In this document: one piece after another, positions 1 through 24,603 of the stretch | How positions within the stretch are numbered: position 1 is the first letter of the stretch | Layout: the number at the start of each line of letters is the position of its first letter | Source: an uncultured Planctomycetales bacterium | GTDB lineage: Bacteria > Omnitrophota > Gorgyraeia > Gygaellales > Profunditerraquicolaceae | Assembly (NCBI GenBank): GCA_964545575.1 | Contig: CAZJFL010000007.1 | Coordinates: 31,848 to 95,847 of the forward strand | Direction of reading: 5' to 3' | DNA: 64,000 nt | Made by a program: the position numbers and the translations under genes | Notes under the pieces: generated by a model | The model's input: only the letters and a program-made list of their open reading frames with translations | The model's database searches: none | Told to the model about the DNA's origin: nothing

Positions 1-336
1 CTGGGTAGTCTTTTCAAAAGGATAAAGGTTTACCACCACCATATCTATCAGGCCGATGTCATGCTCTTTTAAGGTATGCATATGCTCGGGGTTATTTCTT
101 AATGCCAGAAGCCCGCCGTGTATTTTAGGGTGCAGGGTCTTTACCCTGCCGTCGAGCATCTCCGGGAAGCCGGTGTATCCAGAGACCTCCTTAACCGGTA
201 TATTATTTTCTCTGAATAACTTTGCCGTGCCTCCGGTGGAAAGGATCTCCACGCCGAATTTATTTAATTCCCTGGCTAAATCCAGGATCCCGGTTTTATC
301 CGAAACGCTGATCAAGGCGCGCTTAATCTTAACCAT
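1..336 (-). CDS. purH: Bifunctional AICAR transformylase/IMP cyclohydrolase PurH, N-terminal part (gene runs off the left window edge)
   Basis: Manual minus-strand translation from the ATG at 334-336: [41 protein letters not shown]...[28 protein letters not shown], which matches the PurH MGS-like domain. A GGAGG Shine-Dalgarno (SD) sequence lies about 9 nt upstream (plus 345-350). The ORF track misses it because there is no stop inside the window. Confidence 0.7.
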
Positions 337-355
337 CCCCTGTTCCTCCTTAATA

Positions 356-1057
356 TTATTTATTGAATCTAAAGTTCACCAAATCTGCGTCCTGCATGAG
401 GTAATCTTTTTGTTCTAAACGCAGTTTACCCGCCTGCTTAGCCGGCGTTTCTCCGCCTGCCTGGATAAAATCATTGAAGCCGATGATTTCGGCGCGGATA
501 AAACCGTGCTGAATATCGGAATGGACCGCGCCCGCTGCCTCCCAGGCAATAGTTCCTTTTTTAATCAGCCAGGCGCGCGTTTCTTTTTCTCCGGTGGTAA
601 AGAAACTGAGGAATCCTGATGCGCTTAGAACCTTAGCTAATAAACCATCCAAATCTTCTAATTCCTGTTTTTCTGCCGCAATTACCGGTTTATTCGTTAA
701 TAAGCCGTACCCAGAGATCAGCTGCTTTTCGCTATCGGTTAAGCCGGCATTAAAAATAAACTCTTCTTTCTCTAAAATTCCTTTTAATTTATTTAATAGC
801 GATTTTTCCGCTTCCTCTTCGCTGCGCCCTAAGCGCGTTTCTATAAACTCCAGGTCTTTTAAAATCAGGTCGGCGCGGGCATCTTTTAAGGTAAGGATTG
901 CGTCGCAATCCAGGAGAGCATCTTCGCCAACCAACTCTACCTGCAGATAGGTCTTCTTCTTGGCTTTAGTGATTTTATCGACCTCATCCAGCCGGGGGTC
1001 TTTGATGTTATGTTTACCGGGGGAGATTTCCGGGATAGACAATATGCCTATTTTCAT
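356..1057 (-). CDS. YchF/Obg-family-like protein with TGS domain but degenerate/absent P-loop (pseudo-GTPase)
   Basis: C-terminal [41 protein letters not shown]...[16 protein letters not shown] matches the YchF TGS domain. The N-terminus ([24 protein letters not shown]) retains only a vestigial G1 (PGK instead of GxxxxGKS). The DxxG and NKxD motifs are missing. The start ATG directly abuts the TAA of the upstream EF-G paralog (TAAATG). Confidence 0.6.
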
Positions 1058-3016
1058 TTACGCTTCCTCTTCCTGTTTCTTGGTGGCCTGGTATTGCGTG
1101 ATGATGCCGGAGGCGATCTTATGCGGGACCTGTTCGTAATGCGAGAAACGCATGGTATACATACCTCTTCCGCCGGTAAGCGAACGCAGGTCATTGGCAT
1201 AGGTAAACATCTCCGCCAGCGGCACATTCGCCTTGACTACCTGAGACCTTCCTTTAATATCCATGCCCATGATGCGGCCGCGCCGGGAGTTTATATCACC
1301 GGAGATAGCGCCGAGGAAATCTTCCGGTATCAGAATGTCTACCGACATGATCGGTTCTAAGAGAACCGGGCCGGCTGCCTGAACCGCTTTTCTTAAAGCC
1401 ATGGCCCCGGCAATCTGAAAAGCCATATCCGAGGAGTCCACTTCATGATAAGAGCCGTCAACAAGCCTAACCTGTAAATCTACTATCGGATATCCGGCTA
1501 CTGCTCCTTCGCTGGCGGCCTGCCGGATACCTTTTTCTGCAGAGGGGATAAAATTTCTCGGTATTGCCCCGCCGAAAATCTTATCCACGAACTCAACGCC
1601 TTTTCCGCTTTCTAAGGGCTCTACCTCAATCCAGACGTCTCCGTATTGCCCGCGGCCGCCTGACTGGCGCTTAAACTTACCCTGGACTTTGGTGCCCTTG
1701 GTAATCGTCTCCTTGTAGGAAACTTTCGGGGTGCCTAATTCTACTTCCACGTTGAACCTTTTTTTCATCCGCTCTATCATCACCGAAAGATGCAAGTCTC
1801 CTAAACCGGAAACAATCAGCTCTTTGGTCTGGGGGTCATGGGTCACGGTAAAAGTAGGGTCCTCCGTCGCAAGTTTGCTCAAGGCTCCGGAGATCTTATC
1901 TTCGTCCTGGCGGGATTTGGGCTTTACCGAAGCGGATATTGCCGGCTCCGGGAAAACGAGCGGCTCAAATAAAACCTGATTTTTTTCGTCGGTAAGCGAA
2001 TCCGAAGTTGCTGTTTCTTTCAATTTAGCTATGGCGGCTATATCTCCGCAGGAAACCTCATCCACCGGCCTTTGCTCTTTACCCTGTAAAATATAGATTT
2101 GGCCGATTCTCTCCCTGTTTCTTTTGTTGGCGTTATAAAAACCGGTATTGGAAGCCAGGGAGCCGGAGAAGATGCGCAAAAGCGAAAGTTGGCCGACATA
2201 AGGGTCGGATATCGACTTAAAGACAAAGGCAGCAAAAGAGCCGTCTGCTCCAAGGATGAGCTCCTTTTTATTTTGCGGATCCACCGGCAGAGATACTTCT
2301 ACTTTTTCCCGCTCCGCAGGATTAGGCAGGCACTGGATAACCGCATCCAATAATTCAGCTATTCCTTTTTCATTTAAGCCTGAACCGGACAACACCGGAA
2401 ATACCTTACGCTTAATTACTGCCTGATGCAAACCAATTTTTAATTCTTCGGGGGATAGCTGGGTGCCTTCCAGATACTTCTCTATTAATTTGTCGTCACT
2501 CTCTGCGATAGACTCGACTAATTCCGGATTATCCAGGGAGTTTACGGGCAGGGCTTTTTTGGAAAGCCGGGATTGGATATCGGCTAAAACCTTCTCGGGG
2601 TCCGCTCCTTCTTTATCAAGCTTATTGATGAATATTAAGCAGGGTAGGTTGTTTTCTTCTAATACCTGCCAGGCGCGCTCGGTGCCTACTTCTACTCCGG
2701 AGATAGCGTCTACCACAATAACCGCCGCGTCTATCGCGCGGATCCCCGATATTACTTCACCGAAAAAATCCGCATATCCGGGGGCATCGATAATTTGAAT
2801 CCTGATATCCTTATAATCACAGAATAATAAACTTGAGCTGATGGAGCTTTTTCTTTCTATTTCATCAAAGCTATAATCGCTGACAGTAGTGCCGTCGGCA
2901 ACCGTTCCTTTGCGGTTTGTGGCCTTAGAGAAATAGAGCATGGCCTCGGCAAGGGTGGTTTTACCGGATTGGGCGTGCCCCAGAAGGATGAAATTGCGTT
3001 TATTCCTGGGATCCAT
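1058..3016 (-). CDS. Elongation factor G family GTPase (EF-G paralog, 652 aa)
   Basis: G1 GHAQSGKTTL, G3 IIDAPGYADF and G4 NKLD are present, with EF-G domain order through domains III-V. It is shorter than canonical FusA. Confidence 0.75.
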   Translation of the reverse strand: MDPRNKRNFILLGHAQSGKTTLAEAMLYFSKATNRKGTVADGTTVSDYSFDEIERKSSISSSLLFCDYKDIRIQIIDAPGYADFFGEVISGIRAIDAAVIVVDAISGVEVGTERAWQVLEENNLPCLIFINKLDKEGADPEKVLADIQSRLSKKALPVNSLDNPELVESIAESDDKLIEKYLEGTQLSPEELKIGLHQAVIKRKVFPVLSGSGLNEKGIAELLDAVIQCLPNPAEREKVEVSLPVDPQNKKELILGADGSFAAFVFKSISDPYVGQLSLLRIFSGSLASNTGFYNANKRNRERIGQIYILQGKEQRPVDEVSCGDIAAIAKLKETATSDSLTDEKNQVLFEPLVFPEPAISASVKPKSRQDEDKISGALSKLATEDPTFTVTHDPQTKELIVSGLGDLHLSVMIERMKKRFNVEVELGTPKVSYKETITKGTKVQGKFKRQSGGRGQYGDVWIEVEPLESGKGVEFVDKIFGGAIPRNFIPSAEKGIRQAASEGAVAGYPIVDLQVRLVDGSYHEVDSSDMAFQIAGAMALRKAVQAAGPVLLEPIMSVDILIPEDFLGAISGDINSRRGRIMGMDIKGRSQVVKANVPLAEMFTYANDLRSLTGGRGMYTMRFSHYEQVPHKIASGIITQYQATKKQEEEA

Positions 3017-3063
3017 AATATTTTACTCCTTATATAAATAGTAAGCTAACGGAAGGAAGTGCC

Positions 3064-3092
3064 ATTATATAATAGTAAAAAGGAAGGGTCAA
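3064..3092 (-). promoter_or_regulatory. Sigma70-like promoter for the EF-G paralog (-35 TTGACC, 17-nt spacer, -10 TATAAT)
   Basis: On the minus strand: TTGACC cttcctttttactatta TATAAT. The -35 is the reverse complement of plus 3087-3092 and the -10 of plus 3064-3069. A GGAG SD sits at 3021-3024. Confidence 0.4.
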
Positions 3093-3133
3093 GAATAAAA
3101 ATACTTAATCCGCTCTCGGCTGAGGAAAAAGAG

Positions 3134-4315
3134 TTATTCCAGGTAAGTGTAGATTTTCCCGCGGTAATTGCGTAAGACGTATTTTCCTTTGGCCTGCGAA
3201 AGGATGTAGTTAGGCCCCACGGGTATTTTACCGCCGCCGCCCGGGCCGTCGATAACATACGTCGGCACCGCATATCCTGAAGTGTGGCCTCTTAGTTTCT
3301 CCATGATATTGATCCCGACGGCAACCGGGGTGCGGAAATGCTGTGTGCCCCTCACCGGGTCGCACTGATAGATGTAATAAGGCCTGACCCGGATCTGCAG
3401 TAATTCATGCACGAGTTTTTTCATGATGTAAGGCCTGTCGTTTATGCCTTTTAAAAGCACGCTCTGGCTGCCTAAAGGAATCCCGCTATCCGCCAGCATA
3501 TCGCAGGCGGTTTTACAGCGCCTGGTAATTTCTTTGGGATGATTGAAGTGGATGCTCACCCAGATAGGGGCATATTTTTTTAGCATGGCCACCAGATTCT
3601 CGGTGATGCGCTGGGGCAGGGTTACCGGCACACGCGTGCCGATCCTTAAAAACTCCACGTGCGAGATAGAACGGATCTTCTGAATCAAGCTTTCAATTTC
3701 TTCGTCCTCTAAGATAAAGGGGTCTCCTCCGGAAATCAGCACATCCCTGATTTTACGGTTTGATTTTATGTATTCGACGGCGGCATCAAATCTCGACGCG
3801 GAATTATCTTCTTTATGGTCTCCGACTAACCTGCGCCGGGTGCAATGCCGGCAGTACATCGCGCACTGCTCGGTGGCTAATAACAGGACTCTGTCCGGAT
3901 AGCGATGCACCAGATGCGGTGCCGGAGAATCCCTGTCTTCCGCGCAAGGATCGACCATTTCGTGCGGGGCAACCACAAACTCCGAAGCCACGGGAACTGC
4001 CTGGCGCCTTAAGGGGCAAGTAGGGTCTTCCGGGTCGAGCAGGTTCGCCCAATAAGGAGTAATCGCCAGAGATAGCCGGCCGCTAGCCTTCTTTATCCCC
4101 TCTTCTTCTTCGGGGGTCAATTTTATGATCTCCGCCAGTTCTTCGCGGGCACGTATCCGGTGTTTTATCTGCCAATGCCAATCCTCCCAATCCAGGGGAT
4201 TGACATCCTTATAAAGGCTAATTTGCTGATAATCAAGCGACCTCCTGCCGGGGCGAGGCGGCGCTTGGGGCTCCTGTAATAATTTTTGGTTCTCCGTTAC
4301 CGCGGTATGATTCAA
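3134..4315 (-). CDS. kamA: L-lysine 2,3-aminomutase (radical SAM, KamA/AblA family)
   Basis: Near-collinear match to Clostridium KamA, including the CAMYCRHCTRRR radical-SAM/PLP motif, YPDRVLLL and HFNHPKEIT. Confidence 0.85.
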   Translation of the reverse strand: MNHTAVTENQKLLQEPQAPPRPGRRSLDYQQISLYKDVNPLDWEDWHWQIKHRIRAREELAEIIKLTPEEEEGIKKASGRLSLAITPYWANLLDPEDPTCPLRRQAVPVASEFVVAPHEMVDPCAEDRDSPAPHLVHRYPDRVLLLATEQCAMYCRHCTRRRLVGDHKEDNSASRFDAAVEYIKSNRKIRDVLISGGDPFILEDEEIESLIQKIRSISHVEFLRIGTRVPVTLPQRITENLVAMLKKYAPIWVSIHFNHPKEITRRCKTACDMLADSGIPLGSQSVLLKGINDRPYIMKKLVHELLQIRVRPYYIYQCDPVRGTQHFRTPVAVGINIMEKLRGHTSGYAVPTYVIDGPGGGGKIPVGPNYILSQAKGKYVLRNYRGKIYTYLE

Positions 4316-5313
4316 TTTAGCCTTGTCCTTTCCGAGGCGCTGGTCAATATCGCCTCAATCAGCTCTTCGTATTTCATGCCCGCAGCATAAGCCATCATCG
4401 GAAAATTAGATTCCTTAGGGTCTAGCCCGGGCAGAGGATTTATCTCCAAGACGTAAGGCGTGTTATCTTTGCTTAAACGGATATCGGTGCGGGAAATATC
4501 AAAGCAACCTACTGCGCGGTGCGTCCGCAAAGCGGCTTCCTTGACGCGCTCTTCGGTTTCTCTATCCAGGCGCGCAGGGCAATGGAACGTCGGCACCAAC
4601 CCTAAATCCGCATTGCCCTGGTATTCCTTCATCCTCCAGGAATAAAAATATTCACCGCTTTTTGCGCAAGCCGAAAAATCTATCTCCAAAATAGGCAAGA
4701 TCATCGTCTTTCCGTTCTCCAGGACCCCCACGGTCAGCTCTTTCCCGTCGATAAACTCTTCCACGATTACTTCGTGTTTATAGGCATTAATGATTTCTCT
4801 GATTTTAGCAAAAAGCATCTCTTTAGTATGCACTACGTTTGAGGCGTTGATGCCCTTGGCCGAGCCTTCACGGTTAGGTTTGACAATGAGCGGGAATCTT
4901 AAATCCGGGATCAGCTCTTCACTGCCCTTGGCAAATACCTGGAAGCGCGGGGTAGGTATATTTTCTGCTTTTAGGATTTTTTTGGTGAGCGCTTTGTTTA
5001 AGGCCATGGCCAGCGATAAAGTATTGGAGCCGGTGTAAGGTATGTTTAAATAATCCAGTATCGCCGGAATCTCCGACTCTCGGAACTTTCCGGACGAGCC
5101 CTCGGCGATATTAAAGACCATGTCCACGGGGTTCTTCCTAAAATATGAAAAGAGGTTTTCCCTGCCGGCATTGACCGCATCCACGCTATGGCCGTTTTTC
5201 TGGATTGCCGAGACGATTGCCGAGACGGTCTCTTCGGAATCAAACTCGGAAAAATAATCCGCCGGCTTGCTGGAATCTTTTTCTTTTAAATTATAAGTTA
5301 AGGCGATCTTCAT
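4312..5313 (-). CDS. D-alanine--D-alanine ligase family ATP-grasp enzyme (paralog 1)
   Basis: 333 aa with a Ddl-like ATP-grasp layout (FPLIVKPNREGSAKGI, VEEFIDGKELTVGVL, EINPLPGL). Overlaps kamA by 4 nt. Confidence 0.7.
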   Translation of the reverse strand: MKIALTYNLKEKDSSKPADYFSEFDSEETVSAIVSAIQKNGHSVDAVNAGRENLFSYFRKNPVDMVFNIAEGSSGKFRESEIPAILDYLNIPYTGSNTLSLAMALNKALTKKILKAENIPTPRFQVFAKGSEELIPDLRFPLIVKPNREGSAKGINASNVVHTKEMLFAKIREIINAYKHEVIVEEFIDGKELTVGVLENGKTMILPILEIDFSACAKSGEYFYSWRMKEYQGNADLGLVPTFHCPARLDRETEERVKEAALRTHRAVGCFDISRTDIRLSKDNTPYVLEINPLPGLDPKESNFPMMAYAAGMKYEELIEAILTSASERTRLN

Positions 5314-6303
5314 CTAATTCAAATCGTACCTTTTAAGCGCGCTGTCTAAAATCTTTCCGATCATCTGCTCGTAAGAAATACCGGTCTCTTTGGCCACCAA
5401 TAAAAATACGTCCTCCGTCGAGAGAGACGGCAAAGGATTTATCTCTAAGACATAAACGCGGCCTTTGTTATCCACCCGGAAATCCACCCTGCCGAAATCG
5501 CGGCACTCTACCGCGTTATATGCCTTAAGCGCTAAATCGCAAAGTTTCCTCTTTAGATCGACGCTAATGTGCGCGGGGCAGATATATTCTAACCTATCCG
5601 AGGTGATCCGCGCGAAAGTATAGAACTTATCGTTGAGCTTGAAACGGCCGTCTATCTTTATCTGCACCACCGGCATCGCTTCCGGGGGGTCGTTACCGAC
5701 TACGGCGACGGTAAATTCCTGGCCGGAAATAAACTCTTCCACCAGCGCCGGCTGTTTGTAGGTATTGATTACGAATTCAGCCTGCCTTTTTAATCCTTCC
5801 ATGTTTTCCACCCGGGAATCTTCGCTTAAACCTTTGGAGGAGCCTTCGAAACGCGGCTTGACGATCAGGGGAAATTTCAGATGGTCCATATCCACTAAGG
5901 AATCCGTATTTTTTACTTCAAAAAATTTCGGGGTGGGTATCCCTTCGCTGATAAAGATTCTTTTGGCCATAATCTTATCCAGCGTCATGCCTAAGGTAAG
6001 GGCATCTGCGCCCACAAAAGGAATCCCCCTCATCTCTAATAATACCGGGACTTGCGATTCCCGGTTTCTGCCGGATACGCCTTCGGAGATGTTAAAAACA
6101 ATATCTACGCCCAGATTATCTATTTTTTCCAGGAGATTGGAGACGTTGCCGATTTTTTTTACCGGGAAACCACAGGCTTTAATGGCGTCGGCAATGACGT
6201 CAATGGTAGAGGGATGGTCGAATTCCGCGTTGGCATCCGGGGGATCGCCCTCTTTAAACTCGTAATCTGTCTTTAAATCGTATGTTAACCCTACGGTTTT
6301 CAT
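5314..6303 (-). CDS. D-alanine--D-alanine ligase family ATP-grasp enzyme (paralog 2)
   Basis: 329 aa, paralogous to the neighbouring gene (FPLIVKPRFEGSSKGL, VEEFISGQEFTVAVV, EINPLPSL). Directly abuts paralog 1. Confidence 0.7.
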   Translation of the reverse strand: MKTVGLTYDLKTDYEFKEGDPPDANAEFDHPSTIDVIADAIKACGFPVKKIGNVSNLLEKIDNLGVDIVFNISEGVSGRNRESQVPVLLEMRGIPFVGADALTLGMTLDKIMAKRIFISEGIPTPKFFEVKNTDSLVDMDHLKFPLIVKPRFEGSSKGLSEDSRVENMEGLKRQAEFVINTYKQPALVEEFISGQEFTVAVVGNDPPEAMPVVQIKIDGRFKLNDKFYTFARITSDRLEYICPAHISVDLKRKLCDLALKAYNAVECRDFGRVDFRVDNKGRVYVLEINPLPSLSTEDVFLLVAKETGISYEQMIGKILDSALKRYDLN

Positions 6304-6322
6304 AAAGTTATGGCCTCATTTA

Positions 6323-6358
6323 AAAAATAAGGGCCCTCTTACTTCTTGAGCCCTTTAA
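6323..6358 (-). terminator. Hairpin plus U-tract between the UPF0280 gene and the ATP-grasp/kamA genes (possible terminator or attenuator)
   Basis: Minus-strand RNA: AAGGGC-UCAAGAAGUAAGAGG-GCCCUU followed by AUUUUUU, lying 20 nt upstream of the ATP-grasp start codon. Confidence 0.3.
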
Positions 6359-6504
6359 TTTACCCCTTTATTTTTCCAACTTAATTTATTTAACCTCCCT
6401 AAAATTCTCTCAACTCATTCATACATATTGTATTAACAACTATTTTTAACATAATATCTTGTCGTTGTCAAGTAATTTTTGAATTTCAGGGGGCTAAGCG
6501 GAGG

Positions 6505-7266
6505 TTATTTTATCGACGGAGGAATTGAAAAATGGCTGAGAGAGACCTTGCCCCAGCCGATAAGATTATTTTTAATGATGACCACGACACCGATAACGCC
6601 CTTTATGGACCTGGCAAAATCCAGCGCCTTCTCTAAATCCGCCTTGGACTGGACCCGGTTACAGATAGCAGTGGCTGCGGCATCGGCCAAAGAGGCGTTC
6701 TTGGCCAGAATCACCACGCTATCCGCACAACCAAAACTTAAAGAATGCCCTATTGTCCCCGAAGAAGTACAAATACCCAGGGGAGTATCTTGCGGGCGTA
6801 TCTTAAGCACCAATCCTTTCCATAGCTTGGACTTTCCTGCGTATATGGCGATGTTGCGTGTTTTTTTTGTGACTAAAAATACATCTCCTCCGTTTTCAAT
6901 AATCACTTCTTTGTAACCTCCAGCTAATAAATCTTTGCCTAAAAAAGAGGCTATGGCTCCCGCCACGGTTGCCATCGGCCCGACGCCGGCTTTCTTGGCC
7001 TGCCTGCTCATTTCTTTTACGATTGCGGCTGCGTTTATCTCAACCTCCAAAGGCTTAAGGCTGGTCAGGAATTTTGCGTCTTTACTAATATAGTTTTCTA
7101 TCTGTCTGCGGTAAAGCCGCACTCTTTTTTTAGCGAAATCTTGGTCTAACGGCTTATCGGCGAGGATTACTAAATCCGTTTCTCTCTCGACAATATGCGC
7201 CGAATGCAGATCCTTGTGCCCAGCCCAATCGCGATAAAATCTTCTTCGATATTTATTGCTTTTCAT
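6505..7266 (-). CDS. UPF0280/ApbE-like family protein
   Basis: GVGPMATVAGAIASFLG...GICTSSGTIGHSLSFGCADSVVIL resembles the UPF0280 (COG2122) signature. Confidence 0.5.
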   Translation of the reverse strand: MKSNKYRRRFYRDWAGHKDLHSAHIVERETDLVILADKPLDQDFAKKRVRLYRRQIENYISKDAKFLTSLKPLEVEINAAAIVKEMSRQAKKAGVGPMATVAGAIASFLGKDLLAGGYKEVIIENGGDVFLVTKKTRNIAIYAGKSKLWKGLVLKIRPQDTPLGICTSSGTIGHSLSFGCADSVVILAKNASLADAAATAICNRVQSKADLEKALDFARSIKGVIGVVVIIKNNLIGWGKVSLSHFSIPPSIK

Positions 7267-7268
7267 CT

Positions 7269-8276
7269 TTAACAGATGCGCGGCAGCGGGTCGCCGATAA
7301 GCATATCAAGGATACGCCGTGTGCCTAAAACAGTATTCAGTATTACGCGGCCTTTAGGCTCTTTAATTACGGTACCGATCTCCCGGGCCCGGCGGCCTAA
7401 GGGATGCTTTCTTAAAAAATTTAAGACCTTTTTGCTCTCTTGCTGCTTTACCACCAAGACCGCCTTTCCTTCATTAGCCACATACAAGGGGTCTATGCCC
7501 AGCAGCTCGCCAGCAGCCCTGACCTGGCTGGAGATAGGTATATTTTTCTCGTCGATAATAATTCCTAATTTGGAAGCTTCGGCAATTTCATTTAAGGTGG
7601 TAGCTACGCCACCCCTGGTCGGATCGCGCATAAACTTTATGGCGGAGGTTTGTTGAAGCAGGCCGATCAGCATTTTATTTAAGGCCGCGCAGTCGCTTTT
7701 TATATTAAAGCCGAAATCCAGCTCTTTTCTTTTGGCTAAAACCGCCAGGCCATGCTGGCCGATATTTCCGGTAAGAATGATTTTATCCCCTGCTCTGATA
7801 TTGGCGATAGCAAGCTTCCTGTTTTTAAGAATCCTGCCGATGCCGGAAGTATTAATGAATAGTTTATCGCAGGCACCCTTCTCCACTACCTTCAGGTCTC
7901 CGGTAACAAAAAGTATGCCTGCGGCCCTGGCATTCATGGCGATAGAATCAACGACCTGCTCCAGTATCTTGTAATCCAGGCCCTCTTCGATGATCAGCGC
8001 TAAAGAAAGGTATTCCGGGACGGCGCCCAGCATTACTAAATCGTTTACCGTGCCGCAGACTGCCAGCTTCCCGATGTCTCCTCCGGGAAATCTTAAAGGG
8101 CTGACCACAAACGAATCTGTGGAAAAAGCGAGCTTCTCTTTATAGCCGATGTAAGCGCTGTCGCTAAGCTCCCTTAAGACCGGATTATTTAATTTCTCTA
8201 GCAGAAGCCCTTTGATTAAACCGTGCATCAGCCTGCCTCCGCTACCATGACTAAGTAATATCTGTTTATTAAACAT
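7269..8276 (-). CDS. hypE: Hydrogenase maturation carbamoyl dehydratase HypE (PurM-like)
   Basis: N-terminal HGSGG, PurM-like fold and the diagnostic C-terminal PRIC motif. Confidence 0.8.
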   Translation of the reverse strand: MFNKQILLSHGSGGRLMHGLIKGLLLEKLNNPVLRELSDSAYIGYKEKLAFSTDSFVVSPLRFPGGDIGKLAVCGTVNDLVMLGAVPEYLSLALIIEEGLDYKILEQVVDSIAMNARAAGILFVTGDLKVVEKGACDKLFINTSGIGRILKNRKLAIANIRAGDKIILTGNIGQHGLAVLAKRKELDFGFNIKSDCAALNKMLIGLLQQTSAIKFMRDPTRGGVATTLNEIAEASKLGIIIDEKNIPISSQVRAAGELLGIDPLYVANEGKAVLVVKQQESKKVLNFLRKHPLGRRAREIGTVIKEPKGRVILNTVLGTRRILDMLIGDPLPRIC

Positions 8277-8294
8277 ATTTTGTTTGGAACATTA

Positions 8295-8348
8295 GAATTT
8301 AAACTTTAGGATTTGTTTAGGATTTCGGATTTAGAATTTAGGATTTCT
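8295..8348. repeat. GGATTT/TTAGGATTT short-repeat tract (dispersed family, copy A)
   Basis: The plus strand reads tttaggatttgtttaggatttcggatttagaatttaggatttc. The same unit recurs near 11722-11770 and 14780-14940. Confidence 0.5.
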
Positions 8349-8968
8349 ATATCAATACCTGCATCAACAAGGTCCTTTTTGAGTTGTTCTATTCCTGTAA
8401 AAACAGCGCCCTTGATGCCTAATCCGGCGGCAATCTCTACGAGCTCCGGCCTGTCGTCGGTGTAAAAGACTTTTTCCGGCGCCTCTACCCCTAAAGCTTC
8501 CAGCGCCCGGCTATAAATTAGGGGGTGGGGTTTACGCATCCCCAACTCAAAAGAAGTAAGCACGCAATCAAAAGCGTCGAAAAGGGGAAAAATCTGCTTC
8601 AGGTAATTAAAGTGCAAAACGTTGATATTGGAAAGCAGCGCTGTTTTATACCTGCCTTTAAGCGTCTTAGCCAACTTATAGACGCCGCTGTTCTCCCTGG
8701 TTAAAAAGAAAATCTCATTCCAGATAGGCAGAAAATCTTTGTAATCCAGTTTTAAATTGAGCATCTCCCTTACCCTGGAGAAAAAATCCTGGGATGAAAT
8801 TTTGCCTTCTTCGAAGAGCCCGGTAATTCCGGAATCAAAAAAAAGACCGAATATTTCCTGCTCGGTTTTATCGGTAAACCCGGATATTCTCCTGGCGGCG
8901 ATATTATGATCAAAGCTGATCAGGACGTTGCCTAAATCAAAAATAACCGCTTCTATTTTATTTTCCAT
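8306..8968 (-). CDS. HAD-superfamily hydrolase
   Basis: Motif I VIFDLGNVL and the HAD core. The C-terminal KSEILNKS is encoded by an AAATCC/GGATTT repeat tract. Confidence 0.6.
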   Translation of the reverse strand: MENKIEAVIFDLGNVLISFDHNIAARRISGFTDKTEQEIFGLFFDSGITGLFEEGKISSQDFFSRVREMLNLKLDYKDFLPIWNEIFFLTRENSGVYKLAKTLKGRYKTALLSNINVLHFNYLKQIFPLFDAFDCVLTSFELGMRKPHPLIYSRALEALGVEAPEKVFYTDDRPELVEIAAGLGIKGAVFTGIEQLKKDLVDAGIDIEILNSKSEILNKS

Positions 8969-9960
8969 TAATTACCCTTAGGCTTGCCCTGTTTTTTCTT
9001 AAATAAATCCAGGAACCTGTCTTCGTATTCTTTATACACATTCCATTTATCTAGCTCTGTCTTTAATTCGCCGGCCTTGGCAATATCGGTCTTAGCTTGC
9101 ACAAAAAGCCTTTCGATATTTTCCTTCACCGAAACCGGCAGTTTGGTAAGCTGGCTGAGATATTTTTTTATCTTCTCTATCTCCTCTTCTCCGATGGGAG
9201 CGGCGGCCTGGCCGAGCTTTAAATAATCCAGTAGTTTATTGATTTCTCCTTCGGTGGCATGTATCTGTTCAACTAGCCCTGTAAAATCTATTTTTATCTC
9301 TAGCATCCTGCCTAAGGCCTCTAAAACCGCCAGGGACGCCTTGGGATTTTCAACCTGGATAGTGTAAAGCGGTATTTCTCCGAGCAGGCAGAAGCCTTCC
9401 AGGCCCGCTCTTTTCGCTATCCCTAAAAATAAACCGTTCATGCCGCTGATCTGGCCTTCGGATAAAAGATTCAAATTATATGCTTTAAAATTATCTTTGA
9501 CCTGCGCGGAGGTTGCGGCAAACCAGACTCCAGCCTGCTGGGTATGGTCAATGGCCTGGGGCATCGCGGCAAAGCTGATTACCGTCTTTACTTTGAAAGT
9601 AGCGGCAAGCTCCAGTATCCGCTTGCAGTAATCGCCGGCTTTGGCTAAATCCGGCTGGGCATTGCTAATAAAAATAATCAGGTCGCGCCCGCCTTGGGGG
9701 TTACTCCAAAAATAAAACTTGCTGTAAGGAAGCTCCGGCGCCGATAATAAGCCTTCCCGGACAACGCTGCCGGTAAGATAAAAAAACTCTTCGGGCGCAA
9801 TCCGGGTAAACTCTTCGGCTTTCAGTTTTTCCACTAAATAGCTTGCTGCTTTAAAAGCCACCTCGCCCATACCCGGCCAGGCAACAATTAAATAGGGGTC
9901 TTTAAGTTTGGGTTTTTTATCCATCTTTAGTTCCTTTCTCATCTGCCGGCGCTTAATCAA
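8968..9960 (-). CDS. PAC2-family (proteasome-assembly-chaperone-like / ATP-grasp superfamily) protein
   Basis: Its size and the N-terminal YLIVAWPGMGEVA...segment are reminiscent of the PAC2/COG1938 family. This is a weak, memory-based assignment. Confidence 0.35.
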   Translation of the reverse strand: MIKRRQMRKELKMDKKPKLKDPYLIVAWPGMGEVAFKAASYLVEKLKAEEFTRIAPEEFFYLTGSVVREGLLSAPELPYSKFYFWSNPQGGRDLIIFISNAQPDLAKAGDYCKRILELAATFKVKTVISFAAMPQAIDHTQQAGVWFAATSAQVKDNFKAYNLNLLSEGQISGMNGLFLGIAKRAGLEGFCLLGEIPLYTIQVENPKASLAVLEALGRMLEIKIDFTGLVEQIHATEGEINKLLDYLKLGQAAAPIGEEEIEKIKKYLSQLTKLPVSVKENIERLFVQAKTDIAKAGELKTELDKWNVYKEYEDRFLDLFKKKQGKPKGN

Positions 9961-11087
9961 GCTTTAAACCTATATTGCTTTAAAAACTCTTCTAATACCA
10001 GTGCCCCTTTATAGAGGCTGTTTATCTTGGCGTATTCATCCGCGGTATGCGCTAGACCTTCCGAGCCAAAACCTGTAGCTACTGCTGGGATAAATTTATC
10101 CTGGAAGAAAGTAATCACGGTTGCCCCCTCCGAACCCTTAATTTGCGGCTTAAGAGAAACTTTTCTCATCGCAGAAGTTAAACACTTTACCAGGGGATGA
10201 TTTGTCTGTATCGCATAAGGTTTTTGAATATCCTCTATCTCTATTTTAAACCTCTTTGCATGTTTGCCGACTACCGTCCTAATATATTTTAATAACTCTT
10301 CTGCTTCCGTGCCCGGTAAAAACCGAAAGTCCGCCTCAAACTCGCACCAATCAGCCACGACATTTACTTTATCCCCGCCTTTGATGGTCCCGATATTCAT
10401 GGTCGGCGGCCGAAGATACGGATTCCCGGCATAAGCGAATCTGTGATTTTTTAGTTCTTGAATGATACCCACCGCTGCCTCAATCGCGTTTACCCCCAGC
10501 CACGGATAGGCGCCGTGTGCCCTCCTGCCCTGGATTTTTACTTTAAGATGTATCAAGCCTTTCTGGGTAATAACGACGGAAAAATCATCGGAATCTAAAA
10601 CTACCGCTGCATCCGGCTTTAATATGCCTAATTCTAGTAAAGGAATTAACCCGAGAGATGAACCGCTCTCCTCATCCGCGGTAGCAGCAAAGATTAGATT
10701 ATAATCTAAAACCGCGCCATCTTCAACTAAACTATTTATCGCCTCCAGGCCGCAGGCCAGATTTCCTTTACAATCAGTAGCGCCTAGGCCGTAAATTTTA
10801 TTTTTATGGATTTTAGCGGCAAAAGGAGGAAAACACCAGCTTTTTCCGGCAGGCACGGTATCTAAATGCGGAGTGAGTAAAAGCGAATGTTTACCCCCGG
10901 CTCCTTTTAATACCGCTATTACATTAGAGCGTTCTTTTTTAAAATCGTAAATACGGACTTTTAGCCCTAAATTATCCAGGTATTTTTTTACCCAGCAGGC
11001 TATCCTGGATTCGTTGCCGCCGGGATTCTCGGAATTAATCCTGATTAATTGCCGCGTAATTTTTATTAACCTTTTTTTATTAACCAT
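9957..11087 (-). CDS. M20-family metallopeptidase/deacylase (ArgE/DapE-like)
   Basis: LLLTPHLDTVPAG, GATDCKGNLA and ATADEESGS are typical M20 metal-binding motifs. Confidence 0.7.
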   Translation of the reverse strand: MVNKKRLIKITRQLIRINSENPGGNESRIACWVKKYLDNLGLKVRIYDFKKERSNVIAVLKGAGGKHSLLLTPHLDTVPAGKSWCFPPFAAKIHKNKIYGLGATDCKGNLACGLEAINSLVEDGAVLDYNLIFAATADEESGSSLGLIPLLELGILKPDAAVVLDSDDFSVVITQKGLIHLKVKIQGRRAHGAYPWLGVNAIEAAVGIIQELKNHRFAYAGNPYLRPPTMNIGTIKGGDKVNVVADWCEFEADFRFLPGTEAEELLKYIRTVVGKHAKRFKIEIEDIQKPYAIQTNHPLVKCLTSAMRKVSLKPQIKGSEGATVITFFQDKFIPAVATGFGSEGLAHTADEYAKINSLYKGALVLEEFLKQYRFKA

Positions 11088-11089
11088 CT

Positions 11090-11839
11090 CTAAAACTTAA
11101 AGTTCACGCTGGCGGCCAGGGCGTCGCTATCAAAAAACGAGCCTTCCAGGTTGATCCAGATTTTCTGCGCCAGCGGTAGATCAAAACCAAAAATCAGGCC
11201 CCAGCTCTTTCCTAAGTCTGACATTTTGCGTTTACGCCGCTCTCCCTGCCAGTGGATATAATCGATTCTAGACCATCTGGTTCCTAGATAGGGCCTTATA
11301 AACCTGAAGTCATAAGACACCAGCGCCGAAGTCTGCCAATCATCTAAAACTGCCCGCTGCTTTACTCCTAAGACATAAGTATGCTTCGGATGCACGCTGA
11401 TATGCTGAAATCCAAATACAGCCTTAATCTTGTGCGCATCGTAAAGCCTTAAACGCAGGCCGTAACCTCCGTCAAAACTATAGGCATAATCTATTTCGCT
11501 GGCTCCGGGCGGGCGCTGTTTTATATCCCCGGCCCCGCCCTTTAAATCTATGGCGAACCAATCAAAGACTCCGTAGGACAGGGTAAAGAAGTTCTGGATA
11601 CTGCGCACTTTTCCATAAGCATCCTCTAAATACCTTTTAAAGATAGAGTGGGTCTGGAAACCGCCGAAGAACTCGCCCCTCTCGGGCATCTTTGTGCCGT
11701 AACAGGGAGCAGCGTAGCAATTAAAATCCAAAATGCAAAATTCAAAAATCAAAATTACAATCCAAAATTTTCCCGCTAAAGCGGGATCCCGCCATATATT
11801 GAATATTAAGGAGCGGGAAAAATTTATTTTAGCGGACAT
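11090..11839 (-). CDS. Putative outer-membrane beta-barrel protein (start uncertain)
   Basis: Shows an alternating aromatic/hydrophilic pattern and a C-terminal ...SVNFKF. The N-terminal about 50 codons are encoded by an AAAATCC repeat tract plus hairpin, so the true start may be the internal Met near 11689. Confidence 0.35.
   Translation of the reverse strand: MSAKINFSRSLIFNIWRDPALAGKFWIVILIFEFCILDFNCYAAPCYGTKMPERGEFFGGFQTHSIFKRYLEDAYGKVRSIQNFFTLSYGVFDWFAIDLKGGAGDIKQRPPGASEIDYAYSFDGGYGLRLRLYDAHKIKAVFGFQHISVHPKHTYVLGVKQRAVLDDWQTSALVSYDFRFIRPYLGTRWSRIDYIHWQGERRKRKMSDLGKSWGLIFGFDLPLAQKIWINLEGSFFDSDALAASVNFKF
11722..11790. repeat. AAAATCC repeat tract plus CCCGC-taaa-GCGGG hairpin (dispersed family, copy B)
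   Basis: aaaatccaaaatgcaaaattcaaaaatcaaaattacaatccaaaatttt followed by cccgctaaagcgggatcccgcc. Confidence 0.45.
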
Positions 11840-12456
11840 ATATTACACTTCGGCTTACTCTTCAGGCAAAAGTCTTTACCTAACTTTACTAATAGTGCAT
11901 GGTATTCGTTAAATAATTTTAGGTTTGGCTTTAAATTACACATGAATAAGTCCTGTACTTGGGTATATGAACCGTTATCTTTAATCAGCTTATGCCGCAA
12001 GAATATCCTTCTGGTATAGGCGTCGACTACGAAAACCGGTTTATTCAGGGCGTAAAGCAATATGGAATCCGCTGTCTCCGGGCCGATACCGTTTACGGAA
12101 AGTAATTGCCGGCGTAAAACTTTACTTGTCTTCTGTGATATTTTTTTTAGGCTGCCCCGGTAATGATTGATATAAAACTTTAGAAAATTATTCAGGCGTT
12201 TTGCTTTAATATTATAATATCCGGCCGGACGGATAAGTAAAGCTAGCTTCTTAGGATGCAGCCGGTAAAGTTTAAGCGGGCTAAGCAGTTTATTATTTTT
12301 GAGGTTCTTGATCGCCTTTTCTACGTTTGCCCAGCTGGTATTCTGGGTCAGGATTGCCCCCACCATCACCTCAAAAGGCGAATCCCCCGGCCACCAGGCT
12401 TGCGGCCCGAAATGCGAATATAATTTTTTGTAAATACTCTTTAACCGGCGCTTCAT
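11824..12456 (-). CDS. HhH-GPD base-excision DNA glycosylase (endonuclease III-related)
   Basis: LLSVNGIGPETADSILLYAL...VVDAYTRRIF matches the HhH-GPD motif. Confidence 0.6.
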   Translation of the reverse strand: MKRRLKSIYKKLYSHFGPQAWWPGDSPFEVMVGAILTQNTSWANVEKAIKNLKNNKLLSPLKLYRLHPKKLALLIRPAGYYNIKAKRLNNFLKFYINHYRGSLKKISQKTSKVLRRQLLSVNGIGPETADSILLYALNKPVFVVDAYTRRIFLRHKLIKDNGSYTQVQDLFMCNLKPNLKLFNEYHALLVKLGKDFCLKSKPKCNICPLK

Positions 12457-16032: not shown

Positions 16033-16228
16033 CGATTAACCTTAAGGTCTCTCTTGCTTCCTGCGTGTCGACTTTCTGGATGGCAAAACCGGCGTGCACC
16101 AATACATAATCGCCTGCCTTTGCCTGCGGCAACATCTGAATATTTATCGTCCGGATAAGCCTGCCGGATGAGACTTCGGCGAAATCACCCTTAATCGCCT
16201 TTATTTTCATCGGTATAGCTAAGCACAT
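16019..16228 (-). CDS. hypC: Hydrogenase maturation factor HypC
   Basis: Internal start MCLAIP... is the HypC hallmark, so the likely start is the Met at 16228 rather than 16249. Confidence 0.8.
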   Translation of the reverse strand: MCLAIPMKIKAIKGDFAEVSSGRLIRTINIQMLPQAKAGDYVLVHAGFAIQKVDTQEARETLRLIDEIR

Positions 16229-16229
16229 G

Positions 16230-19067: not shown

Positions 19068-19070
19068 GGT

Positions 19071-19526
19071 TTAAATATTTAATTCTATTAAATCCTGGGC
19101 TTCCTTGTAGGCTTGGATTATCTGGGGGTTGTCCTTTAAGATGTTCCTCTGTTCCGGGCGGTTGAAGAAATCCGCCAGCTTCTGGACATATTCTCCAAAG
19201 CCCTGGGTTCCCGCATTCTCCTGTACAAAAGGGCAATTTAAATCTACGGCCAAGAAAACTTTATTTGCCTTAAAGTTGATCAGGAAAGGGTAAAGCTGGC
19301 ATTCAAAAGGGCGCAGAGGATATATGGTGCACTTATTCTGGGCAGGATTAAAAGAAGCGCAGATAAAACTATCCTCTTTGGCGCCGGGTACCAGTTTGAT
19401 TTTTTCTCTTAAAGATTCTTCCTCCTGGCGCAAAAGACAGGGCGACCAGACCGTGCCCTGGTTGCTGAACCGGCAACAGCCGGGGCACTTTAAACAGACC
19501 TCTTCTGGCACGAATTGTGCGATCAT
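19071..19526 (-). CDS. YkgJ-family cysteine-cluster protein (UPF0153)
   Basis: CLKCPGCCRF...CTIYPLRPFECQLYPF. Confidence 0.6.
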   Translation of the reverse strand: MIAQFVPEEVCLKCPGCCRFSNQGTVWSPCLLRQEEESLREKIKLVPGAKEDSFICASFNPAQNKCTIYPLRPFECQLYPFLINFKANKVFLAVDLNCPFVQENAGTQGFGEYVQKLADFFNRPEQRNILKDNPQIIQAYKEAQDLIELNI

Positions 19527-19843: not shown

Positions 19844-19860
19844 TTTATCTCCTTTAGCCT

Positions 19861-20189: not shown

Positions 20190-20249
20190 AAAATAAGGAA
20201 TAAATTCTAACTTAAAATACTGCTTTAGGCAATGCCTTTTTATAAAAAT

Positions 20250-24600: not shown

Positions 24601-24603
24601 AAA

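What the first reader, a model, noticed from the sequence alone, without database searches (positions are those of the whole stretch)
356..3016. EF-G paralog translationally coupled (TAAATG) to a YchF-like protein that has lost its P-loop and G motifs
The 233-aa downstream protein keeps the YchF coiled-coil and TGS (ribosome/RNA-binding) domains. It lacks the roughly 130 residues that carry G1 to G4, leaving only a vestigial PGK where GxxxxGKS should be. Its ATG follows the EF-G paralog stop codon directly. This suggests a ribosome-associated factor pair in which the YchF-like partner acts as a nucleotide-independent adaptor, or alternatively a decaying gene.
Basis: seen in the sequence. Interest (0 to 1): 0.55.

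Follow-up and report, generated by a model that had tools for sequence, protein, structure and literature searches.

The report
YchF relative without its nucleotide-binding pocket
The small gene after the EF-G copy is not decaying: it belongs to a conserved, unstudied family in Omnitrophota and Verrucomicrobiota in which the near-universal ATPase YchF has lost every nucleotide-binding element, while its position next to EF-G is only a local gene-order habit.

Summary
Both genes are real and lie on the minus strand: an EF-G-like gene (1058..3016, 652 aa) and a 233-aa YchF relative (356..1057), joined by TAAATG.

**The 233-aa protein**
- It is YchF with five internal segments removed, not an N-terminal truncation. 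Gone are the P-loop/switch I, G3/switch II, the catalytic-His segment, the G4-G5 block and the basic tip of the helical hairpin.
- The "PGK" aligns with E. coli G42-V43, not the P-loop.
- It is not decaying. All 94 copies examined are intact (86 of exactly 233 aa), median dN/dS is 0.22, and AlphaFold gives pLDDT 94.5 with a YchF-like fold (TM about 0.8).
- The family is monophyletic. At least 597 species genomes of Omnitrophota and Verrucomicrobiota carry it. It keeps nearly every YchF-conserved residue outside the nucleotide pocket. I found no paper on it.

**The EF-G copy**
- It is EF-G2 type, with the catalytic His replaced by Tyr.

**The pairing**
- EF-G2 lies directly upstream in 25 of 37 informative Omnitrophota loci, with spacers of -4 to 78 nt.
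- It is adjacent in none of 42 Verrucomicrobiota-type loci and in no deep-branch locus.
- Zero-nt junctions are the norm in this window (26 of 48 are 0 nt or less).

**Open question:** whether a canonical YchF coexists in these genomes could not be tested here.

The parts
1058..3016 (-). EF-G2-type (EFG II) paralog of elongation factor G, 652 aa, including stop codon 1058..1060
   Evidence: Pfam finds GTP_EFTU, EF-G_D2, EFG_III, EFG_IV and EFG_C. NCBIfam NF009381 scores 850 bits against a cutoff of 583. The closest solved structures are EF-Gs. About 45 aa of the G' subdomain are missing relative to canonical EF-G.
2954..2980 (-). EF-G2 P-loop, GHAQSGKTT followed by L22 (aa 13-21)
   Evidence: Gly at the first position and Leu at the last position of the P-loop are the EFG II signature; EFG I has Ala and Thr there (Margus 2011, PMC3150367). 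Coordinates. The motif GH[AS][QH][SA]GKTTL is conserved in 20 of 20 orthologues.
2765..2788 (-). EF-G2 G3/switch II motif DAPGYADF; Tyr81 (codon 2774..2776) replaces the catalytic His
   Evidence: It aligns to DTPGHVDF of S. aureus EF-G. D[TASV]PGY[AL]DF is found in 20 of 20 orthologues. M. smegmatis EF-G2 has the same substitution (Y98). An H88Y mutation nearly abolishes ribosome-dependent GTPase activity in M. smegmatis EF-G1 (bioRxiv 10.64898/2026.05.25.727771).
3064..3092 (-). Sigma-70-like promoter (TTGACC, 17 nt, TATAAT) in the 117-nt gap upstream of EF-G2, followed by an AAGGAG ribosome-binding site
   Evidence: The scan gives 11 of 12 consensus matches, the best in the region. Sequence shown. 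This is a consensus match only, not proof of function.
1055..1080 (-). Junction: the 3' end of EF-G2 carries a Shine-Dalgarno-like GGAAGAGGAAG, then TAA and ATG with 0 nt between
   Evidence: In orthologous loci the spacer ranges from -4 to 78 nt, so the exact juxtaposition is not conserved.
356..1057 (-). mini-YchF, 233 aa (a YchF lacking all G motifs; databases call it 'DUF933 domain-containing protein'), including stop codon 356..358
887..1057 (-). mini-YchF aa 1-57: remnant of the G-domain beta-sheet (beta1, loop SIPEISP in place of P-loop/alpha1/switch I, beta2, DPRLD helix, beta3, short helix, beta4)
   Evidence: Alignment to E. coli YchF and full-length relatives. AlphaFold secondary structure with pLDDT of at least 93. 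D20 and R22 correspond to E. coli D48 and R50, which are conserved in both the short and the full-length forms.
689..886 (-). mini-YchF aa 58-123: helical hairpin domain, shortened, with an acidic turn ([11 protein letters not shown]) in place of the Lys-rich tip
   Evidence: The function of the tip in E. coli is taken from PMC11814078.
614..688 (-). mini-YchF aa 124-148: strand beta5 (KPVIA) joined directly to the helix that precedes the TGS domain; the G4 (NxxE)-G5 block of about 57 aa is absent
359..613 (-). mini-YchF aa 149-233: TGS / YchF C-terminal domain, complete
   Evidence: PF06071 covers 83 of 84 model positions, E = 1.2e-32. It is 54% identical to the E. coli YchF TGS domain. The invariant residues T154, W163, H179, G185 and F186 are shared with canonical YchF.
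1..336 (-). Start of the next gene in the same array (PurH, an AICAR transformylase/IMP cyclohydrolase orthologue), beginning 19 nt after the mini-YchF stop behind an AAGGAGG site; cut by the window edge
   Evidence: Sequence. The orthologous loci show a 518-aa MGS + AICARFT_IMPCHas protein at this position. It lies downstream of mini-YchF in 36 loci.

Best explanation
**What it is.** The 233-aa ORF is a functional member of an old, monophyletic "mini-YchF" family found in Omnitrophota and Verrucomicrobiota. It descends from the near-universal ATPase YchF/OLA1. Five segments have been removed: those that build the nucleotide pocket and the catalytic machinery, plus the basic tip of the helical hairpin. 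What remains is the beta-sheet core, a shortened helical hairpin and a complete TGS domain, predicted to sit in the canonical three-lobed arrangement.

**How it most likely works (inferred).** Almost every residue conserved in full-length YchF outside the pocket is also conserved here. The protein therefore most likely performs the binding part of YchF's job, docking to the ribosome, RNA or a protein partner through the TGS/helical cleft and the conserved D48/R50/D136-type surface. It would do so constitutively, with no ATP/GTP switch.

**Genomic setting.** In this genome it is the second gene of a compact same-strand array that starts at a sigma-70-like promoter: EF-G2, mini-YchF, PurH and onward. 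EF-G2 is a second EF-G copy of the EFG II type whose catalytic His is Tyr, so it is probably a poor GTPase.

**The pairing.** The two genes are probably co-transcribed, but the linkage is specific to one Omnitrophota clade and is dispensable for mini-YchF.

**Shown versus inferred.** Shown here are the gene structure, the absence of motifs, the selection, the predicted fold, the distribution and the synteny statistics. Inferred are nucleotide independence (from sequence only), the binding partner, and co-transcription.
For: - **Motif loss.** The five-block deletion pattern appears in the alignment with E. coli YchF and full-length relatives. No P-loop occurs in any short representative, whereas most full-length neighbours have one.
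- **HMM evidence.** Only PF06071 matches, and the TIGR00092 score is below its cutoff.
- **Selection.** All 94 genes are intact, 86 of exactly 233 aa. Median dN/dS is 0.22 over 479 pairs, and 0.26 even in the remnant half.
- **Fold.** The AlphaFold model has pLDDT 94.5 and pTM 0.82. Its top 15 Foldseek hits are all YchF/OLA1 structures, with TM scores normalised to the query of 0.69-0.82.
- **Conserved residues.** Positions at least 85% conserved in the short family are nearly all the same residues conserved in full-length YchF.
- **Breadth.** Full-length-coverage relatives reach down to 32% identity. At least 597 GTDB species genomes carry it, from Omnitrophota and Verrucomicrobiota, including the cultured Limisphaera sp. 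4302-co. Named deep members are Omnitrophota.
- **Single origin.** All 25 short sequences form one clade against 92 full-length representatives.
- **Operon context.** A promoter-like site lies upstream of EF-G2 and no minus-strand terminator-like site lies between or after the two genes. Ribosome-binding sites and spacers are shown.
- **EF-G2 type.**
- **Synteny.**
Against: - No biochemical data exist. Loss of nucleotide binding is inferred from sequence and a predicted model only.
- Two of the four contact regions that E. coli YchF uses on the 50S subunit are deleted: the Lys-rich hairpin tip, and the tip after alpha7 of the ATPase domain. Ribosome binding in the canonical mode is therefore not assured.
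- I could not determine whether these genomes also encode a canonical YchF. That leaves open whether mini-YchF replaces the ATPase, supplements it or antagonises it.
- The AlphaFold alignment contained only sequences 60-100% identical to the query, and the network has seen YchF structures, so the domain arrangement may be partly recalled rather than derived.
Confidence: 0.6

Rival explanations
1. **Dedicated two-factor module.** A GTPase-impaired EF-G2 (His to Tyr) and the nucleotide-free mini-YchF would act together on the ribosome, for example in stress-induced silencing, hibernation or subunit anti-association. Expression from one transcript would keep them stoichiometric.
For: - EF-G2 lies directly upstream, on the same strand, in 25 of 37 informative Omnitrophota species loci, across 55-100% mini-YchF identity.
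- There is a single promoter-like site upstream of EF-G2 and no terminator-like site between the genes.
- Two Verrucomicrobiota loci (L079, L084) have an EF-G2-type gene with DAPGYADF/DSPGYADF 1.7-1.9 kb from mini-YchF.
- Mycobacterial EF-G2, with the same His-to-Tyr change, is reported to be a stress-specific ribosome binder without ribosome-dependent GTPase activity.
- E. coli YchF binds the 50S subunit at the subunit interface side.
Against: - Adjacency is absent from all 42 Verrucomicrobiota-type loci and from the deep-branch loci L012, L013/L014 and L095-L097.
- Twelve Omnitrophota loci lack EF-G2 at this position and have KamA directly before an intact mini-YchF. Ten of these form one nested clade, which indicates secondary loss.
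- Within Omnitrophota the mini-YchF/PurH/FolC linkage is at least as conserved as the EF-G2 linkage.
- In a genome where 49 of 50 genes share a strand and most junctions are 10 nt or less, adjacency carries little information.
- The L079/L084 proximity is in convergent orientation and is probably a single inherited event. About 0.1 such events would be expected by chance over 42 genomes.
Confidence: 0.2
2. **Competitor or regulator of a canonical YchF.** Mini-YchF would be a paralogue that coexists with a full-length YchF and occupies the same docking sites without hydrolysing ATP, so that it tunes or blocks YchF action.
For: - It retains nearly all YchF-conserved non-catalytic residues, so it should recognise the same partners.
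- KEGG orthology finds YchF in about 99.4% of non-CPR bacterial genomes, which makes outright loss of the ATPase a priori unlikely.
- The short family is equally distant from all full-length representatives. That fits an old duplication.
Against: - No full-length YchF was seen in the 64-kb window or in any fetched flank of the short-family loci. This is a tiny fraction of each genome and so is weak evidence.
- The family evolves slowly and keeps a constant length, as a sole orthologue would.
- No data bear on coexistence either way.
Confidence: 0.15
3. **Decaying pseudogene, or an assembly/frameshift artefact** that hides an intact G domain.
For: The only support is the absence of motifs in a single sequence.
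Against: - The identical protein was recovered from four independent assemblies.
- All 94 copies are intact, 86 of exactly 233 aa, with dN/dS of 0.22.
- Two protein searches each scored more than 7,300 clusters as related; the 120 listed from each are full-length, 232-239 aa.
- The deletions are internal and in frame at five places.
- The EF-G2 stop abuts the start codon, so no upstream coding sequence could supply a G domain.
- The structure model is confident.
Confidence: 0.01

Closest known systems
YchF / OLA1 (Obg-family P-loop ATPase; TIGR00092; PDB 1JAL, 2DBY, 2OHF, 8KIE)
   Same: - The three-lobed architecture is the same: sheet core, inserted helical hairpin, C-terminal TGS domain.
- Foldseek TM scores normalised to the query are 0.69-0.82.
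- The TGS domain is 54% identical to that of E. coli.
- The same conserved residues are kept outside the pocket: D48, R50, D136, E141, P201, T284, W293, H309, D311, GFIRAE, Y349, D353, D355 in E. coli numbering.
   Different: - G1, switch I, G3/switch II, the catalytic-His segment and G4-G5 are all deleted.
- The Lys-rich hairpin tip that binds 23S rRNA helix H62 is deleted.
- The protein is 233 aa rather than about 363 aa.
- It scores below the equivalog cutoff (130.6 against 279.2 bits).
Pseudo-GTPases / pseudoenzymes (G-domain folds that no longer bind or hydrolyse nucleotide, such as eukaryotic CENP-M; cited from my own knowledge, not checked here)
   Same: It is a derivative of a P-loop NTPase that is kept under selection although its catalytic motifs are gone. 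It presumably acts as a scaffold or binder.
   Different: The pocket-forming segments are physically excised rather than mutated. The family is bacterial and derives from a translation-associated ATPase. I found no described bacterial YchF example.
Full-length YchF-like proteins with degenerate P-loops (e.g. P0195 of candidate division WOR-1, 341 aa, GNSQSGKEE; also P0183, P0192, P0227, P0231, P0232, P0235, P0243)
   Same: They are YchF homologues that appear to have lost canonical nucleotide binding. Databases call them 'YchF C-terminal domain-containing' or 'DUF933' proteins.
   Different: They keep the full G-domain length (325-364 aa) and differ by point changes in G1. They fall outside the mini-YchF clade in the tree.
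EFG II / EF-G2 (T. thermophilus EF-G2, PDB 1WDT; M. smegmatis EF-G2, PDB 9K0Z/9K10): the closest known kind for the upstream gene
   Same: - Five-domain EF-G architecture outside the str operon.
- P-loop Gly...Leu signature.
- Catalytic His replaced by Tyr, as at M. smegmatis EF-G2 Y98.
- Shortened G' region.
   Different: - By sequence it is closer to canonical EF-Gs (about 595 bits) than to the solved EF-G2s (about 453 bits).
- It falls below the NCBIfam EF-G2 equivalog cutoff (600.7 against 890) while passing the NF009381 subfamily model.
- No EF-G2 has been reported next to a YchF-like gene.

Membership tests
YchF/OLA1 ATPase (TIGR00092) | G1 P-loop GxxxxGK[ST] after strand beta1 | tested here: not met
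   The 7-residue loop SIPEISP replaces E. coli residues 10-41. No P-loop occurs in any of the 25 short-family sequences aligned.
YchF/OLA1 ATPase (TIGR00092) | G3 (DxxG)/switch II and the catalytic His (E. coli H114) | tested here: not met
   Both lie in deleted blocks: E. coli about 73-95 and 103-128.
YchF/OLA1 ATPase (TIGR00092) | YchF-specific G4 motif N(M/L/V)xE, and G5 | tested here: not met
   A block of about 57 residues (E. coli about 207-265) is absent. [10 protein letters not shown] replaces KPTMYIANVNE.
YchF/OLA1 ATPase (TIGR00092) | Helical coiled-coil domain inserted in the G domain | tested here: met
   Helices at aa 58-78 and 82-96 in the model align to E. coli alpha4/alpha5. 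The domain is shortened and lacks the basic tip.
YchF/OLA1 ATPase (TIGR00092) | C-terminal TGS / YchF_C domain (PF06071) | tested here: met
   112.3 bits against a cutoff of 27, covering 83 of 84 model positions.
YchF/OLA1 ATPase (TIGR00092) | Whole-protein score at or above the curated equivalog cutoff | tested here: not met
   130.6 bits against 279.2.
YchF/OLA1 ATPase (TIGR00092) | ATP/GTP binding and ribosome-stimulated hydrolysis | not testable with these tools
   This needs biochemistry. The sequence predicts neither activity.
EFG II / EF-G2 subfamily of elongation factor G | Five-domain EF-G architecture | tested here: met
   GTP_EFTU, EF-G_D2, EFG_III, EFG_IV and EFG_C are all found.
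EFG II / EF-G2 subfamily of elongation factor G | P-loop signature: Gly (EFG I has Ala) at position 16 and Leu (EFG I has Thr) at position 25, in 1WDT numbering | tested here: met
   The motif is GHAQSGKTTL. The criterion comes from PMC3150367.
EFG II / EF-G2 subfamily of elongation factor G | Located outside the str operon, with an EFG I copy elsewhere in the genome | tested here: inconclusive
   The neighbours are KamA and mini-YchF, not rpsL/rpsG/tuf. No other EF-G occurs in the 64-kb window. The rest of the genome was not available.
EFG II / EF-G2 subfamily of elongation factor G | Curated HMM membership | tested here: inconclusive
   It passes NF009381 (850.3 against 583) and TIGR00484 EF-G (687.3 against 659.4). 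It fails the EF-G2 equivalog NF009377 (600.7 against 890).
Translationally coupled gene pair | Stop/start overlap or juxtaposition conserved among orthologous loci | tested here: not met
   The spacer is 0 nt here but ranges from -4 to 78 nt in the loci where EF-G2 lies directly upstream. Of 48 same-strand junctions in the window, 26 are 0 nt or less.
Pseudogene | Relaxed selection, disruptions, variable length | tested here: not met
   None of 94 copies is disrupted, 86 are exactly 233 aa, and median dN/dS is 0.22.

The most novel reading that the evidence does not exclude
Mini-YchF may be the only YchF homologue in Omnitrophota and Verrucomicrobiia. In that case a near-universal translation-associated ATPase, one of the standard bacterial marker genes, would have been converted in a large branch of the PVC group into a nucleotide-free protein that keeps every other conserved surface. 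YchF's conserved core role would then be a binding function that does not need ATP hydrolysis. In the window's clade that function may be exercised together with a hydrolysis-impaired EF-G2.
Probability: 0.35. Interest if true: 0.75.

Novelty: new variant of a known kind. Interest (0 to 1): 0.55.

Why it matters
YchF/OLA1 is among the most widely conserved bacterial proteins, yet what its ATPase cycle is for remains debated. This family is a natural experiment. It spans hundreds of species in two phyla, is under purifying selection, and has had the nucleotide pocket and catalytic segments removed while the other conserved residues are kept.

If it is the sole YchF in these organisms, the essential conserved activity is separable from ATP hydrolysis. 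The family would then point directly to the surfaces that matter: the TGS/helical cleft and the D48/R50/D136 patch.

There is also a practical consequence. The protein scores below the TIGR00092 cutoff, and YchF is listed as a bac120 marker, so it could look "missing" in marker-based completeness or phylogeny pipelines for these phyla; I did not test this.

The family occurs in cultured Verrucomicrobiota (Limisphaera sp. 4302-co), so it can be tested experimentally.

Tried and rejected
- **Family-specific locus search.** Alignments of only the N-terminal 146 residues were rejected twice because no stretch was conserved enough.
- **Metagenome scan with a deep-branch alignment.** It was swamped by canonical YchFs through shared TGS motifs. 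Only 4 of 80 loci (L095-L098) were short-family members.
- **Looking for a canonical YchF in the same genomes.**
  - tblastn of E. coli YchF against the window and all short-family loci found only the TGS part of the short gene.
  - Names of the best-scoring full-length representatives gave Wallbacteria and WOR-1 but no Omnitrophota or Verrucomicrobiota.
  - No tool here reads whole genomes, so the question stays open.
  - I left the third large protein search unused, because its 120-row output cannot be aimed at a taxon.
- **Literature.** Nothing was found on G-domain-less YchF, DUF933-only proteins, or YchF in Omnitrophota or Verrucomicrobia. The supplements of PMC12641178 have no per-phylum ychF table.
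- **"PGK" as a vestigial P-loop.** Rejected on alignment and predicted secondary structure.
- **A split gene with the G domain encoded elsewhere.** Rejected because the deletions are five separate internal blocks.
- **Odd 362-369-aa representatives P0136 and P0154.** They look like permuted or duplicated YchF pieces and were excluded as probable assembly artefacts.


Full report
**1. What is in the sequence**

Both genes lie on the minus strand. The EF-G-like ORF is 1058..3016 (652 aa) and the downstream ORF is 356..1057 (233 aa). The EF-G stop is followed directly by the ATG, giving TAAATG on the minus strand.

Pfam finds all five EF-G domains in the first protein. In the second it finds only PF06071, the YchF C-terminal/TGS domain, at aa 150-232. 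NCBIfam's YchF equivalog TIGR00092 gives 130.6 bits against a cutoff of 279.2.

**2. Anatomy of the small protein**

I aligned it with E. coli YchF, three other full-length YchFs and 24 short relatives. This is not an N-terminal truncation. Five internal blocks are missing (E. coli numbering):
- the P-loop, helix alpha1 and switch I (about 11-41), replaced by a 7-residue loop, SIPEISP;
- G3/switch II (about 73-95);
- the segment after strand beta4 that holds the catalytic His114 (about 103-128);
- the turn of the helical hairpin (about 145-158);
- the G4 (NxxE)-G5 block (about 207-265).

The structure model also places a strand at residues 14-18.

The deleted hairpin turn carries K149, K152, K156 and K159. 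In the cryo-EM structure of E. coli YchF on the 50S subunit these residues contact 23S rRNA helix H62. The alpha7 tip of the ATPase domain, another contact in that structure, is also gone (PMC11814078). The turn in the short protein is acidic ([11 protein letters not shown]).

**3. Is it a decaying gene or an artefact? No.**

- The identical protein was recovered from four independent assemblies.
- Two searches of the large protein collection each scored more than 7,300 clusters as related. The 120 best of each are full-length at 232-239 aa, almost all of exactly 233 aa.
- A search of 1.84 billion cluster representatives finds short relatives (225-235 aa) with end-to-end coverage down to 32% identity.
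- I extracted 94 copies from the window and the fetched loci. None has an internal stop, and lengths are 233 (86 copies), 234 (5), 230 (2) and 239 (1).
- Nei-Gojobori dN/dS over 479 pairs with dS between 0.2 and 1.5 has a median of 0.22. It is 0.26 in the remnant half (aa 1-148) and 0.12 in the TGS domain.
- AlphaFold2 on a 61-sequence alignment gives mean pLDDT 94.5 and pTM 0.82, with no low-confidence segment.
- The 15 best Foldseek hits in the PDB are all YchF/OLA1 structures, with TM scores normalised to the query of 0.69-0.82.

**4. What is conserved**

Positions at least 85% conserved among 110 short-family sequences are almost all the same residues conserved among 92 full-length YchF representatives. 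In E. coli numbering these are D48, R50, D136, E141, E161, L172, P201, T284, W293, H309, D311, G315-F-I-R-A-E, Y349, D353, D355 and F361.

The family has thus kept what is conserved in YchF except the nucleotide pocket. This is the main basis for my mechanistic reading: the binding function is retained and the switch is lost.

**5. Distribution**

- In a neighbour-joining tree the 25 short sequences form one clade that excludes all 92 full-length representatives, which indicates a single origin.
- Named deep-branch members are Omnitrophota, including one on the complete 1.28-Mb genome CP070684.1.
- The best 80 comprise Omnitrophota (about 55-77% identity) and, unexpectedly, Verrucomicrobiota (51-61%): Limisphaerales, Opitutaceae and Roseibacillus. 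They include the cultured Limisphaera sp. 4302-co and complete chromosomes.
- A few records carry other taxon names (Planctomycetales, Margulisiibacteriota, Acidoferrum, Bifidobacteriaceae) but show Omnitrophota- or Verrucomicrobiota-type gene order. I read these as mislabelled or misbinned.
- I found no paper on this family. Databases call it "DUF933 domain-containing protein".

**6. The upstream gene**

- Its P-loop, GHAQSGKTTL, has the Gly...Leu signature that separates EFG II from EFG I (PMC3150367).
- Its switch II motif is DAPGYADF, aligned to DTPGHVDF of S. aureus EF-G, so Tyr81 replaces the catalytic His. Tyr is present in all 20 orthologues I could parse.
- M. smegmatis EF-G2 has the same substitution. 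It is reported to lack ribosome-dependent GTPase activity and to act under stress. An H88Y change nearly abolishes GTPase activity in M. smegmatis EF-G1 (bioRxiv 10.64898/2026.05.25.727771).
- Single-copy EF-G genes were always EFG I in the Margus survey, and a His-to-Tyr EF-G is unlikely to be the working translocase. A canonical fusA is therefore probably present elsewhere. This is an inference; none is in the window.

**7. Is the pairing meaningful?**

*Local context*
- A near-consensus sigma-70-like promoter (TTGACC, 17 nt, TATAAT; 11 of 12 matches) sits at 3092..3064 upstream of EF-G2.
- No minus-strand terminator-like site lies between or after the two genes.
- A Shine-Dalgarno-like GGAAGAGGAAG lies inside the EF-G2 3' end. 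PurH starts 19 nt after the mini-YchF stop behind AAGGAGG.
- Co-transcription is therefore likely. However, 49 of 50 genes in the window are on the same strand and 26 of 48 junctions are 0 nt or less, so a 0-nt junction carries no special weight.

*Comparative context*
- In Omnitrophota the conserved block is ATP-grasp, KamA, (EF-G2), mini-YchF, PurH, FolC.
- EF-G2 is directly upstream in 25 of 37 informative species loci, with spacers of -4 to 78 nt.
- Twelve loci have KamA directly before an intact mini-YchF. Ten of these form one clade nested among EF-G2-bearing loci, which indicates secondary loss.
- Deep-branch loci have other neighbours, such as gltX or peptidase U32.
- None of 42 Verrucomicrobiota-type loci has EF-G2 adjacent. 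There uvrA is upstream in 13 loci and a TPR protein is downstream in 10.

*One hint in favour of a link*
- Loci L079 and L084 carry an EF-G2-type gene with DAPGYADF/DSPGYADF 1.7-1.9 kb downstream in convergent orientation.
- This is probably one inherited event. About 0.1 would be expected by chance over 42 genomes, so it is suggestive only.

**8. Verdict on mechanism**

Best-supported reading (confidence 0.6): mini-YchF is a nucleotide-independent derivative of YchF that keeps YchF's docking surfaces. In this lineage it is co-expressed with a hydrolysis-impaired EF-G2.

Rivals:
- a dedicated EF-G2/mini-YchF ribosome module (0.2);
- a competitor or regulator of a coexisting canonical YchF (0.15);
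- a pseudogene or artefact (0.01).

**9. What I could not do**

No tool here reads whole genomes. The window and all short-family flanks lack one, but that covers only a small part of each genome.

This single test decides between "replacement of a near-universal ATPase" and "extra paralogue", and it is easy with the complete genomes listed under next steps. YchF is found by KEGG orthology in 99.4% of non-CPR genomes and is a bac120 marker, so replacement would be notable.

**10. Novelty and score**

The thing is real, widespread and undescribed, but it is a derivative of a known family: a new variant of a known kind. The headline of the original finding, a coupled EF-G/YchF pair, is mostly ordinary synteny. 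The interesting part is the hollowed-out YchF itself. Interest: 0.55.

Noticed in passing
window 45540..57752 (-): A single 4,070-aa ORF. Giant proteins are a known feature of Omnitrophota genomes (bioRxiv 10.64898/2026.06.07.730766). I did not analyse it.
   Followed up: no
window 3134..6303 (-); also L006, L008, L010, L037: A KamA-type lysine 2,3-aminomutase (radical SAM plus the LAM_C domain, 393 aa) is preceded by two D-Ala-D-Ala-ligase-like ATP-grasp genes. The trio is conserved upstream of the EF-G2/mini-YchF block across Omnitrophota. It may make a beta-lysine-containing product.
   Followed up: partly
window 1..64000: Gene packing is extreme and one-sided. Of 50 called genes, 49 are on the minus strand. 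Of 48 same-strand junctions, 26 are overlapping or 0 nt and 35 are 10 nt or less.
   Followed up: yes
L079 8424..10538 (-) and L084 about 8595..10658 (-): Opitutaceae-type Verrucomicrobiota carry a 704-aa EF-G2-like gene 1.7-1.9 kb from mini-YchF in convergent orientation. Its P-loop is GHASSGKTLL, switch II is DAPGYADF (Tyr for the catalytic His) and G4 is NALD instead of NKxD.
   Followed up: partly
L053, L056, L058, L059, L063, L065, L067-L070, L073, L075 (Verrucomicrobiota-type loci): In these loci mini-YchF follows uvrA on the same strand, in seven of them with a spacer of only 6-20 nt (up to 224 nt in the others). A TPR-repeat protein of about 900 aa often follows it. This is a different conserved neighbourhood from the one in Omnitrophota.
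   Followed up: partly
proteins P0183, P0192, P0195, P0227, P0231, P0232, P0235, P0243: Full-length (325-364 aa) YchF-like representatives have degenerate P-loops such as GLPQSGRRT, GNSQSGKEE and GLPKTGTRT. P0195 comes from candidate division WOR-1 and is annotated 'YchF C-terminal domain-containing protein'. Loss of the canonical G1 motif in YchF homologues has therefore probably happened more than once.
   Followed up: partly
L015, L017, L021, L054, L058, L060, L081 (record titles): These contigs have Omnitrophota- or Verrucomicrobiota-type mini-YchF genes, and those with enough flanking sequence have the matching gene order. Their records are nonetheless titled Margulisiibacteriota, Planctomycetales, Acidoferrum, Limnocylindrales, Bifidobacteriaceae or Deltaproteobacteria. 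Mislabelling or misbinning of the MAGs is likely.
   Followed up: no
proteins P0136 (369 aa) and P0154 (362 aa): These cluster representatives look like circularly permuted or duplicated YchF pieces. One starts at 'HVVRCFED...' and the other repeats the G4-TGS region. They are probably assembly or gene-calling artefacts, and I excluded them from the analyses.
   Followed up: no
window 2954..2980 and 2765..2788 (-): In EF-G2 the switch I sequence is ERKSSIS where canonical EF-G has ERGITIT. The Arg-Gly-Ile-Thr contacts with the sarcin-ricin loop are therefore altered, in addition to the His-to-Tyr change.
   Followed up: partly
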